A stretch of 64,000 nt of DNA, taken from positions 10,950 through 74,949 of the IMG/VR virus record IMGVR_UViG_3300027499_000006, one strand, 5' to 3'. Of this stretch, positions 5,752 to 63,856 are shown piece after piece. The notes under the pieces are model-generated. The model was not told where the DNA came from and did not search any database. It saw only the letters and a program-made list of their open reading frames with translations. Positions within the stretch are counted from its first letter, which is position 1, and each line of letters starts with the position of its first letter. Position numbers and translations under genes: made by a program. Source of the DNA: a virus.

Positions 5752-6355
5752 GGACGCCAAGAAGATACTTTATGCAGGCATAGGAGTTCTTGAAAGAGTA
5801 GATGAGCCTACAGAGCCTCTTGCCATTACTTACGCTGTTGAGAAAGAAAATGGCGATATTGAAGTTGAATACGTTGATGGTTCTCGGGAGTCATTTACCC
5901 CAAAACAAGGTAGTATAGTATCGTATACTTACGGAGTTGTACTTTTCACCGCAGAAGATGGTGAGGAGTATGTACTTCGACAAGTTTCAGACCTAGACGG
6001 TGAGTGGATTTCAGAAATAAAAATTTCACTTCCTGTTATCGCGTTGCAATATTTGCTATTAAAACCTGAGGAGACAGTAGAGATGGCGTACCTCGCTGAT
6101 GAGTTAGAAAAACTTATTGCTCTTAAATCCCCAGACAATGACAGCATTATCTCAATGATGTACCTCAACAGGTACGGAGCATTTGTTCGAGTCAACGAAA
6201 ACTGGGTTTCTATTGCTCCCATTGATTCCAGTCTTGATGGGACAGTTCCTTACAACGTTAATGCTGACACCGCTCAAGAGTTTGTTGACATGTATGACAA
6301 TGACAGTGGGCTAAAATACTCACAAGTAAAAGATTATCTCACACCACCTAGTTAG
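5726..6355 (+). CDS. Hypothetical protein, head region (start may be TTG 5744)
   Basis: ~200-aa ORF overlapping the previous stop; fills the operon. Confidence 0.65.
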   Translation: MGLRVTLIEDAKKILYAGIGVLERVDEPTEPLAITYAVEKENGDIEVEYVDGSRESFTPKQGSIVSYTYGVVLFTAEDGEEYVLRQVSDLDGEWISEIKISLPVIALQYLLLKPEETVEMAYLADELEKLIALKSPDNDSIISMMYLNRYGAFVRVNENWVSIAPIDSSLDGTVPYNVNADTAQEFVDMYDNDSGLKYSQVKDYLTPPS

Positions 6356-13063: not shown

Positions 13064-13151
13064 ATTTAGTGTAGTATATAATCATAAACTAGCGGGTGTA
13101 GTGCCTAAACATTTTTGTGTATTAGTCCCTATGCCTCAGACTATTCGAACG

Positions 13152-51094: not shown

Positions 51095-51504
51095 AACTGT
51101 GTTCAAGTTGCAATATAAGTAAGCCATATAGTGACTTTGAAAGTGATTCTCGATATAAATCTGGATACAGAAGTCAGTGCACATACTGCAACAGAAAAGG
51201 AAAAACCTTATCAAGTCTAGGTAACAACTTAAAAAAGTACGGTATAACTCTAGAGCAGTATAATTTTCTACTTGACAGTCAAAAGGGAGTCTGTAAAATA
51301 TGCCAAGAAAAAGAGACTAGAGTTACTAGACCTAAAGCAAAAATATCTATGGGCTATGAGCCAAGACTTGCTGTAGACCATGACCATAAAAATGGAGAAG
51401 TCAGGGGGCTTCTATGTCATAGATGCAATGTGGGGCTAGGAAACTTTCAGGATAATCCAGAACTTCTATTAAAAGCTTATAAATATCTTAAGGATTTTAA
51501 ATAA
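51091..51504 (+). CDS. Endonuclease VII-like (HNH-type) free-standing endonuclease
   Basis: CSSC...CTYC; YGITLEQY...QKGVCKIC...LAVDHDHKNGEVRGLLCHRCNVGLG; GTGA and TAATG overlaps; AT-rich. Confidence 0.88.
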   Translation: MKLCSSCNISKPYSDFESDSRYKSGYRSQCTYCNRKGKTLSSLGNNLKKYGITLEQYNFLLDSQKGVCKICQEKETRVTRPKAKISMGYEPRLAVDHDHKNGEVRGLLCHRCNVGLGNFQDNPELLLKAYKYLKDFK

Positions 51505-62403: not shown

Positions 62404-62703
62404 ATGAACGACCAAATTATCGCAATTATTCGCACAGTAGTCCCCACTTTGGTAGGAGCCTTTGGAGCATTTCTATTGGCTGCAGGAGTTGAGCTGGATA
62501 ATGAGACTAAGAGTGCAATGGTTGTTGCACTGACAGGCATTTTTTCAGGAGCTTATTACGCCATTATTCGCTCTTTTGCATCTAAGGTTCCACTGGCAGG
62601 ATGGCTTTTAGGCTATCCAGCAACTCCCGCATACGGGACACCCAGTACCCCCGAACCAGTAGCAAAAACCTCGCCTAAGGGCAAGACTGGCGCAAAGAAG
62701 TAA
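62404..62703 (+). CDS. Holin-like membrane protein (actinophage type)
   Basis: IRTVVPTLVG...two TM segments...YYAIIR...GWLLG..P.Y; basic tail; SD AGGAG. Confidence 0.7.
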   Translation: MNDQIIAIIRTVVPTLVGAFGAFLLAAGVELDNETKSAMVVALTGIFSGAYYAIIRSFASKVPLAGWLLGYPATPAYGTPSTPEPVAKTSPKGKTGAKK

Positions 62704-62722
62704 ATTGTCTAGTAAGACTAGA

Positions 62723-62759
62723 GCTAGGGAGGTCAGAAATGGCTTCCCTAGTTTTATTT
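62723..62759 (+). terminator. Intrinsic terminator
   Basis: CTAGGGAGGTCA-GAAA-TGGCTTCCCTAG then TTTTATTT. Confidence 0.75.
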
Positions 62760-62994: not shown

Positions 62995-63230
62995 TGTCGT
63001 ACTGTAGATTTTTAGAGGGGGATGTTTATGTCTTCCTCAGTGGGGTTGGAGAGCTCGAGTGTTGCGCCTGCATACTGGACCCGATGGGGGAGCCATGGGG
63101 ATTTTTTAAAGCAGAGAGTACTCAAGAAATGGTGGACCACCTCGAGGCGCACAAAAAAGTTGGGCACTTTATTCCTTGGGGGGTAGTTGAACACTTGTGG
63201 GATGATGACAAAGAGAACTTTCCACTATGA
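62994..63230 (+). CDS. Hypothetical protein (Cys/His)
   Basis: SYCRF..GDVYVF....LECCAC...EMVDHLEAH. Confidence 0.6.
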   Translation: MSYCRFLEGDVYVFLSGVGELECCACILDPMGEPWGFFKAESTQEMVDHLEAHKKVGHFIPWGVVEHLWDDDKENFPL

Positions 63231-63475
63231 AAATCACAACTGAGACAGGTTCTGTCTACGACATCGACGACCACGGTTTCTGTGTCAAGACCGACAAGCA
63301 CGGCAATCGTATGGATGCTTTTAAGGCATTCGTTATGATTCCTGTCCCCGAAAGTGTAAAAATTGTAAAAGAGGTTTTTACCCTCCCAGAAGGAAAACCT
63401 GTTGTTGGTCAGCGTCTCTACATTTCAGGGCTTAATGTCTGGTGGCTCACCACCCTCGTAGTTTCTGTCGAATAG
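63227..63475 (+). CDS. Hypothetical protein
   Basis: ATGA overlap; MKITTETGSVY...T..VVSVE. Confidence 0.6.
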   Translation: MKITTETGSVYDIDDHGFCVKTDKHGNRMDAFKAFVMIPVPESVKIVKEVFTLPEGKPVVGQRLYISGLNVWWLTTLVVSVE

Positions 63476-63642
63476 ACAAACCCCCCACCAGCACGACTTG
63501 GCGGGGGGTGCGGACTGGGCATCAGTCCTTGCCTTGGACACGACATGAGTGGTTTCTAGCGTCAAGCGGGTGTCGGCCCAATCTCACTGCCCGCGCTAGT
63601 CCTTGGCTTAAACGGGATGCCTCCCGTCGGCTGGACGCTGAT
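63473..63642 (-). ncRNA. Candidate structured ncRNA (~170 nt)
   Basis: Minus-strand TATACT (63649-63654), several stems with complementary loops, terminator-like hairpin 63480-63509. Confidence 0.4.
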
Positions 63643-63665
63643 GGGGTAAGTATAGCGCTAAAAAC

Positions 63666-63695
63666 TTGACTTGATGTAGCAGATGTGGCTATACT
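63666..63695 (+). promoter_or_regulatory. Sigma70/SigA-type promoter
   Basis: TTGACT-18 nt-TATACT upstream of ATG 63719. Confidence 0.65.
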
Positions 63696-63718: not shown

Positions 63719-63856
63719 ATGGCAGGAAAAGGCAGAGGTGGGGGAAACTCCGCCCCAAAGAGCCCAATTAGTGACCGTAAAAATAACAAGTCTTCGAAAA
63801 AGCGTCCTAAAGTATTCGATTCTGTGAAGCGCAGATTAGTCACTAAAGATGTCTAG
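63719..63856 (+). CDS. Small Lys/Arg-rich protein (45 aa; not in the ORF track)
   Basis: MAGKGRGGGNSAPKSPISDRKNNKSSKKRPKVFDSVKRRLVTKDV; SD GAAGGG. Confidence 0.55.
   Translation: MAGKGRGGGNSAPKSPISDRKNNKSSKKRPKVFDSVKRRLVTKDV

What the first reader, a model, noticed from the sequence alone, without database searches (positions are those of the whole stretch)
63473..63654. Candidate ~170-nt ncRNA with complementary (kissing) loops
Seen (minus strand): TATACT, then hairpin ACGGGA-ggca-UCCCGU (63612-63627); a long stem GCC-aa-GGAC...CUAGCG/GCGGG...CCCGC/CGCUAG...GUCC-aa-GGC; hairpin GGACUG-augcc-CAGUCC (63512-63528); and an 11-bp G/C terminator-like stem (63480-63509). The two loops GGCA(U) and AUGCC are complementary. 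No convincing ORF; it lies back-to-back with the promoter at 63666. Inference: a stand-alone structured RNA. Size and loop-loop pairing recall phi29 pRNA or an SRP-Alu-like fold, which is speculative.
Basis: partly seen in the sequence, partly recalled or inferred. Interest (0 to 1): 0.6.

Follow-up and report, generated by a model that had tools for sequence, protein, structure and literature searches.

The report
Uncatalogued pseudoknotted RNA of lake phages
The flagged stretch is very likely a real gene for a folded non-coding RNA of about 165 bases, shared by a small group of uncultured freshwater actinobacterial phages and matching no catalogued family; in relatives it sits back-to-back with a second small RNA gene that this genome has lost, and its job is unknown.

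Summary
Both hairpins, the complementary loops, the -10 box and the terminator are at the stated coordinates; the two-hairpin pattern occurred in 0 of 3000 shuffles. Homologues lie behind the same 82-aa gene in eight other phage lineages (eight distinct RNA sequences, 74-97% identical to the window). Indels break every reading frame and G-U changes point to the minus strand. There is no Rfam match.

The homologues revise the fold. Compensatory changes support a long 5' hairpin, an H-type pseudoknot (5 + 11 bp) and the 3' hairpin. The kissing pair never covaries and loses one pair in one lineage, so it is unproven.

New finding: all eight relatives carry a second small RNA gene on the opposite strand, driven from an overlapping two-way promoter. 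This genome lost that gene and its -10 box is mutated. pRNA and SRP-Alu membership are rejected. Transcription could not be shown. Best guess: an accessory, trans-acting phage RNA that works as a protein-binding decoy or scaffold.

The parts
63476..63642 (-). Predicted RNA-A transcript (about 167 nt), from inferred +1 A at 63642 to the terminator U-run
   Evidence: Ends inferred from -10 box and terminator, not measured; model R2 scores the window 146 bits and relatives not used to build it 128 and 159 bits
63649..63654 (-). -10 box TATACT of RNA-A; TANNNT kept in all nine lineages (TACACT in L171); no good -35
63642..63647 (+). Decayed -10 box of the lost partner RNA-B (TGGGGT here; TANNNT in all eight B-bearing relatives); predicted starts 12 bp apart
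   Evidence: bidirectional promoters are defined as start sites 7-25 bp apart in PMC10268837
63595..63638 (-). Domain 1: long irregular 5' hairpin (D1a 63633-63638 with 63595-63602; D1b 63629-63631 with 63606-63608) capped by P1
   Evidence: D1a 48/48 cells paired with a C-G to U-A change in L070; D1b 23/24
63612..63627 (-). P1 hairpin, 5 conserved bp, 6-nt loop ARGCAN (63617-63622)
   Evidence: 40/40 cells paired, G-U/A-U changes; loop G to A in L171
63566..63594 (-). Pseudoknot stem S1 (63590-63594 with 63566-63570)
   Evidence: 39/40 cells; G-C/G-U to U-A change in L070
63534..63581 (-).
   Evidence: 88/88 cells; two columns changed on both sides, four on one side
63530..63533 (-). Invariant linker GGCA, a second possible partner for the 3' loop (likely only in trans or in another fold)
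   Evidence: 32/32 cells complementary to UGCC; the steric argument is inference
63512..63528 (-). P5 hairpin with invariant loop AUGCC (63518-63522)
   Evidence: stem 53/56 cells, several compensatory changes
63475..63509 (-). Intrinsic terminator hairpin and U-run, shared with the convergent 82-aa gene; also present where the RNA is absent (L105)
63655..63658 (+). GCGC junction: similarity to B-bearing relatives stops here; these four bases are what remains of RNA-B
   Evidence: L060 is identical across the ORF and RNA-A but diverges beyond this point; same break in an independent run
63227..63475 (+). Convergent 82-aa small beta-fold protein gene; constant neighbour, not required partner (7 loci have it without the RNA)
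63666..63695 (+). Sigma70-type promoter of the downstream basic-peptide/DUF7695 genes; neighbour only in the window-type arrangement

Best explanation
RNA-A is an accessory, independently transcribed non-coding RNA of a freshwater actinophage lineage related to Microbacterium cluster GD. Inferred: host housekeeping RNA polymerase starts at 63642 from a -10-only two-way promoter and stops at the terminator shared with the convergent gene. Supported by covariation: the RNA folds into a long 5' hairpin, an H-type pseudoknot (S1 5 bp, S2 11 bp) and a 3' hairpin. Inferred: the invariant loops ARGCAN and AUGCC dock by 3-4 pairs, within one molecule or between copies, to make a compact shape. It has no gene downstream to regulate and no conserved peptide, so it must act in trans. 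Most likely it is a shape-based binding surface, a decoy or scaffold for a host protein during infection. The target is not identified. RNA-B is a co-expressed companion gene, not an obligatory half.
For: Homologues in 8 further lineages. 227/228 cells paired and 5 pairs with double changes on six sequences, above all 500 shuffles and all slid controls for percent paired and covariation score; hand counts on eight sequences agree. RNA identity 74-80% where four-fold synonymous sites of the next gene are only 35-48% identical. G-U changes fit the minus strand. TANNNT kept while its inner bases vary. Terminator U-run faces the RNA in all nine lineages. Present in 9 lineage types and absent from 7 at the same site, including one with the same terminator. 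Next to tRNA-Trp in five relatives by ARAGORN, the setting of ROOL and GOLLD (PMC12286853).
Against: No transcript: the only RNA run gave no contig. Only eight distinct sequences, and the double changes come from few events (D1a and S1 one each, both in L070; S2 one clade split). The kissing pair has no covariation and one lineage breaks a pair (31/32). The rod fold is compatible in all variants and 2-5 kcal/mol more stable than the nested part of the pseudoknot fold in 7 of 8. Nothing here points to a specific protein partner.
Confidence: 0.45

Rival explanations
1. RNA-A and RNA-B form a two-part switch: the 3' arm of B pairs with the 5' strand of A (4 bp, 3x3 loop, 9 bp), opens domain 1 and flips A from the pseudoknot fold to the rod fold.
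For: B accompanies A in 8 of 9 lineages on a shared two-way promoter; the duplex can be drawn in all eight with one column showing U-A, U-G and C-G; two folds of near-equal energy are kept in all variants; B keeps two C-rich repeats even when the hairpin between them grows to 42 nt.
Against: Binding energy beats shuffled B at p < 0.05 in only one of eight (p 0.03-0.92). An A-C mismatch occurs in two lineages. B has its own covarying fold. The window type keeps A without B, also in an independent study, and B was not found elsewhere in the held contig, which is about 48% complete.
Confidence: 0.17
2. RNA-A self-assembles into RNA-only dimers or rings through its loops, like a miniature ROOL/GOLLD or pRNA ring, without a packaging role.
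For: The complementary loops sit at opposite ends of a 16-bp pseudoknot, and a second invariant GGCA cannot easily reach the adjacent loop in cis (inference). Intermolecular kissing loops build ROOL and GOLLD cages (PMC12286853).
Against: Only 3-4 pairs, no covariation, one broken pair in L171. Those cages use many bridges in RNAs of 500-800 nt.
Confidence: 0.15
3. RNA-A is a ribozyme or stand-alone ligand-binding RNA whose pocket is built by the pseudoknot and the invariant unpaired bases.
For: Long pseudoknot with invariant unpaired bases; most large structured bacterial ncRNAs of known function are ribozymes (PMC10861870).
Against: No match to any ribozyme or riboswitch model; hammerhead, HDV-like, pistol and group I consensus features were checked by eye and fail; single copy, not inside a gene.
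Confidence: 0.12
4. The element works as DNA (single-stranded origin, recombination or protein-binding site) or is a neutral palindromic relic.
For: No transcript seen; three copies of a short direct repeat span the cassette in relatives; the region recombines often.
Against: One-strand G-U bias, pseudoknot covariation, promoter and terminator at its ends, no GC-skew turn there, neighbouring genes differ between relatives.
Confidence: 0.08
5. It is a phi29-type packaging RNA.
For: Similar length and two complementary loops.
Against: No Rfam match; the phage has a terminase large subunit with ATPase and nuclease domains; the RNA was not found in three complete related viral contigs (G001-G003) or three related isolates, so it is not essential for assembly; no three-way junction bearing both loops.
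Confidence: 0.02

Closest known systems
ROOL and GOLLD orphan RNAs of phages and prophages (PMC12286853)
   Same: Phage-encoded, stand-alone, near tRNA genes, pseudoknots and loop-loop contacts, patchy distribution, unknown function.
   Different: Those are 500-800+ nt with many covarying bridges; this is about 167 nt, has no Rfam similarity, one unproven loop-loop contact and a divergent partner RNA.
phi29 pRNA (PMC2241910, PMC5340915)
   Same: About 170 nt; two loops with short complementarity.
   Different: pRNA is essential, has a three-way junction and serves a phi29-type motor. This RNA is accessory, has an H-type pseudoknot and lies in a terminase phage.
SRP RNA Alu domain
   Same: Two hairpin loops that could pair.
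   Different: Alu loops sit on adjacent hairpins at one junction next to helix 5 (own knowledge); here they flank the core, there is no S domain and no SRP model matches.
raiA motif RNA (Rfam RF03072; PMC10861870, PMC12968392)
   Same: Size class, pseudoknots, actinobacterial setting; RNA-B has a loop-E-like internal loop.
   Different: No covariance-model match; lacks the conserved UUAGA(C/A)GUAA linker and the closing P1 stem.
Bacterial bidirectional promoters (PMC10268837, PMC12825309)
   Same: Two -10 boxes on opposite strands with predicted starts 12 bp apart, inside the 7-25 bp definition.
   Different: Both products are structured ncRNAs of a phage; 12 bp is not among the commonest spacings (18, 10, 23 bp).

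Membership tests
phi29 pRNA | Match to the Rfam pRNA model | tested here: not met
   No hit at E up to 5-10 on window or relatives
phi29 pRNA | Host phage uses a phi29-type motor rather than a terminase | tested here: not met
   Terminase_6N and Terminase_6C in the contig; relatives are 130-195 kb phages
phi29 pRNA | Essential, so present in all related phages | tested here: not met
   Absent at the same site in 7 loci; not found in complete related genomes
phi29 pRNA | Covarying intermolecular loop-loop pairing and prohead binding | tested here: inconclusive
   Loops complementary in 31/32 cells, no covariation; binding not testable here
SRP RNA (Alu domain) | Match to SRP models; S domain with helix 8 | tested here: not met
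   No Rfam hit; no helix-8 motif in alignment A7
SRP RNA (Alu domain) | Two adjacent hairpins whose loops pair | tested here: not met
   The hairpins are 83 nt apart, on either side of the pseudoknot
ROOL / GOLLD / manA | Match to the family covariance model and family size | tested here: not met
   No hit; 167 nt
ROOL / GOLLD / manA | Stand-alone phage RNA near tRNA genes | tested here: met
   tRNA-Trp near the cassette in L060, L063, L064, L071, L171; none in the window's own contig
ROOL / GOLLD / manA | RNA-only oligomer formation | not testable with these tools
   Needs native gel or cryo-EM
raiA motif | RF03072 match and conserved UUAGA(C/A)GUAA linker | tested here: not met
   No cmscan hit; linker absent from A7. 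One search was uninformative because its controls did not ring
Riboswitch or 5' leader | A downstream gene on the same strand | tested here: not met
   A terminator and the 3' end of a convergent gene follow in all nine lineages
tRNA / tmRNA | ARAGORN or Rfam call; acceptor stem and T-loop | tested here: not met
Small protein gene | Reading frame conserved across homologues | tested here: not met
   Non-triplet indels and differing open frames

The most novel reading that the evidence does not exclude
The cassette is a natural two-RNA machine: a 12-bp two-way promoter makes a bistable pseudoknot RNA (A) and a trigger RNA (B) whose 3' arm pairs with A's 5' strand and switches its fold, and so its loop-loop assembly or activity, during infection. 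The window's phage would be a natural trigger-less variant.
Probability: 0.15. Interest if true: 0.8.

Novelty: new variant of a known kind. Interest (0 to 1): 0.5.

Why it matters
It adds two uncatalogued RNA families (A and B) from phages of freshwater Actinobacteria. At about 135 structured bases, RNA-A is far easier to probe than ROOL or GOLLD, so it is a tractable test case for what orphan RNAs near phage tRNA genes do. Natural variants with both RNAs, with A only, and with neither give built-in controls. It matters less than it might because the family is narrow (nine lineages), the host is uncultured and no function or transcript is shown.

Tried and rejected
Rfam scans of the window and three relatives gave only a tRNA and weak chance hits. 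blastn of the element and of the full cassette against INPHARED gave chance hits. Five DNA patterns in IMG/VR, one in JGI metagenomes and one in GTDB gave chance matches only. Model R2 found nothing beyond the window's own type in 100 loci, 40 related viral contigs, DSL-LC01, A3Wally or Pumpernickel; best E 0.076 at 10 bits. RNA-B was not found in the held contig, which is incomplete. The one metatranscriptome (X20, poly-A library, share 0.04) laid no contig; this is no evidence either way. The 82-aa neighbour has no Pfam, PHROG, PDB or BFVD match, only unnamed phage clusters in the ESM Atlas, so no RNA-binding role could be assigned. Recalled resemblances to group II intron domain I, group I P3/P7 core, hammerhead, HDV-like, pistol, T-box, Y RNA and raiA were compared by eye with the alignment and dropped because the key bases are not conserved; these were leads from memory, not tests beyond the Rfam scan. 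A UAAGC/GCUUG pairing was dropped (broken in L171). The A-B duplex is not better than shuffled B in most lineages. The gene tree of the neighbour is mostly unresolved (3 of 13 branches supported), so gains and losses were not counted.

Full report
Setting. The window lies in an 82,589-base linear virus contig, about 48% complete. Its primase is about 50% identical to those of Microbacterium cluster GD phages and 57% to freshwater phage DSL-LC01; it encodes WhiB and a terminase large subunit. Runs holding the stretch are subsurface, lake and lagoon metagenomes. The host is inferred to be an actinobacterium.

Check of the observation. The two-hairpin pattern with complementary loops appeared in 0 of 3000 shuffles and once in the contig, but that descriptor was chosen after the fact and a looser one fires often. 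The core's folding energy is ordinary (z -0.7); the z of -2.47 includes the terminator. Rfam has no match.

Homologues. DNA pattern scans of IMG/VR, JGI and GTDB found only chance hits. Homologues came through the convergent 82-aa gene: 26 related proteins and their contigs. The element follows that gene in nine lineage types (window type, L060, L063, L064, L066, L070, L071, L171, L194), giving eight distinct RNA sequences. It is absent in seven (L001, L002, L003, L105, L106, L107, L173). L105 has the same terminator and the start of a tRNA but no RNA, so the RNA is an accessory cassette and the terminator is not specific to it. RNA identity to the window is 74-80% in the distant lineages, where four-fold synonymous sites of the neighbouring gene are 35-48% identical. 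Non-triplet indels rule out a conserved peptide.

Fold. D1a pairs the invariant 5' segment (63633-63638) with 63595-63602: 48/48 cells, with a C-G to U-A change in L070. S2 pairs 63571-63581 with 63534-63545: 88/88 cells, two columns changed on both sides and four on one side. S2 crosses S1 (63590-63594 with 63566-63570; 39/40 cells, U-A in L070), which makes an H-type pseudoknot with no linker between the stems, a 5-8-nt first loop and a 19-23-nt third loop holding a variable hairpin. On six sequences the whole model pairs in 227/228 cells; slid controls give 26-45%. The two sequences found later fit the model without refitting (128 and 159 bits). The number of independent double changes is small, so this is good but not overwhelming support. 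G-U changes are common on the minus strand, which fixes the strand.

Its helices pair in 23/24, 32/32 and 24/24 cells, but every change in them is also explained by D1a or S2, whereas the changes at the 5' strands of D1a and S2 are explained only by the new model. Energies are close: rod -42 to -47, nested part of the new fold -40 to -48 kcal/mol before adding S1. The 5' hairpin would form first during transcription (inference). Either the rod is a by-product of repeated short motifs or the RNA is bistable.

Kissing loops. The P1 loop is ARGCAN and the P5 loop is always AUGCC. Three pairs are invariant, the fourth is A-C in L171 with no compensation, and the fifth seen in the window pairs in only 4 of 8. 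A second invariant GGCA at 63530-63533 is complementary to the same loop in all eight. The contact is plausible but not shown, and cis or trans cannot be told.

Promoter and partner RNA. TANNNT is kept on the minus strand in all nine lineages, 7 bp before a conserved A (63642). One base away, on the plus strand, all eight relatives have a second TANNNT whose inner bases vary freely, mostly preceded by TG. The predicted starts are 12 bp apart, within the 7-25 bp that define bidirectional promoters (PMC10268837). That box faces a second conserved unit, RNA-B (about 75 nt; about 110 in L194): a hairpin with a loop-E-like internal loop, two C-rich repeats and a variable apex, then a GC-rich hairpin with mostly UNCG loops. 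RNA-B has four pairs with double changes on six sequences and a U-run after the hairpin in L171. tRNA-Trp follows or lies near in five relatives. The window matches L060 across the gene and RNA-A but diverges at GCGC 63655-63658, lacks B and has TGGGGT in place of the plus-strand box, as expected if an unused promoter decays while the minus-strand one is kept. The B-less arrangement also occurs in an independent study at about 6% divergence (X12). So the promoter at 63666 is a replacement neighbour.

Mechanism. Shown: sequence, conservation, helices, non-coding state, accessory distribution, pairing with B. Inferred: transcription, ends, pseudoknot geometry, loop docking. With only a terminator downstream it cannot be a leader, so it acts in trans. 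I judge it about 85% likely to be a real transcribed RNA. Among functions I rank a shape-based decoy or scaffold for a host protein first (0.45), an A-B switch (0.17), RNA-only assembly (0.15), ribozyme or aptamer (0.12), DNA-level element (0.08) and packaging RNA (0.02). The A-B duplex can be drawn in all eight relatives but is not better than shuffled controls in most, and A persists without B.

Comparison and novelty. It fails membership of pRNA, SRP-Alu, raiA, ROOL, GOLLD, manA, tRNA/tmRNA and riboswitches (see table). It resembles in kind the orphan structured RNAs near phage tRNA genes (PMC12286853). Literature searches found no description; the viral candidate-RNA set of PMC10690425 could not be checked because no supplement is held. 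Earlier scan notes hold no look-alike sequence but list several other uncatalogued kissing-loop phage RNAs, so new families of this kind are not rare. Verdict: a real, new, narrowly distributed family with an unusual paired-gene layout; interest 0.5.

Noticed in passing
L060:766-838 +, L063, L064, L066, L070, L071, L171, L194 (absent from window): RNA-B: a second uncatalogued structured RNA gene with a loop-E-like internal loop, two C-rich repeats and a covarying terminator-like hairpin; apex expanded to 42 nt in L194.
   Followed up: yes
window 63719-63856 +: 45-aa basic peptide overlapping the start of the DUF7695 gene. Its KKxPKxFDxxKRRL motif is conserved in L064, L071, L171, L173, L001 and L111 at different positions, so it is probably a real unannotated small gene.
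   Followed up: partly
window 63227-63475 +: 82-aa protein folds confidently (pLDDT 97) as a small all-beta domain with no Pfam, PHROG, PDB or BFVD match.
   Followed up: partly
window 63480-63509: The terminator hairpin comes in two loop versions that are swapped independently of RNA and ORF alleles; L067-L069 carry an 82%-identical protein next to a 99.5%-identical RNA. This points to a recombination hot spot.
   Followed up: partly
window 5917-5929, 13073-13082, 51257-51264: Other pairs of opposing TANNNT boxes between genes, suggesting two-way promoters are common in this phage.
   Followed up: no
window 62719-62756 +: 17-pair terminator-like hairpin after the 99-aa membrane protein gene (62404-62703, phrog_10742).
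   Followed up: no
L060:927-1367 -: A Dam-family methyltransferase gene is inserted just beyond tRNA-Trp in one relative; L070 has a weak HicA hit upstream.
   Followed up: no
L063:2200-2280, L071:2530-2595, L064:2500-2630, L171:2560-2660: Further small GC-rich hairpins with promoter-like boxes between RNA-B and tRNA-Trp, differing between lineages; possibly more small RNAs.
   Followed up: no
L178:4273-4698 (genome 76272-76700, beyond the window): Free-standing HNH endonuclease gene about 1.7 kb from the RNA; not seen next to the cassette in relatives.
   Followed up: partly
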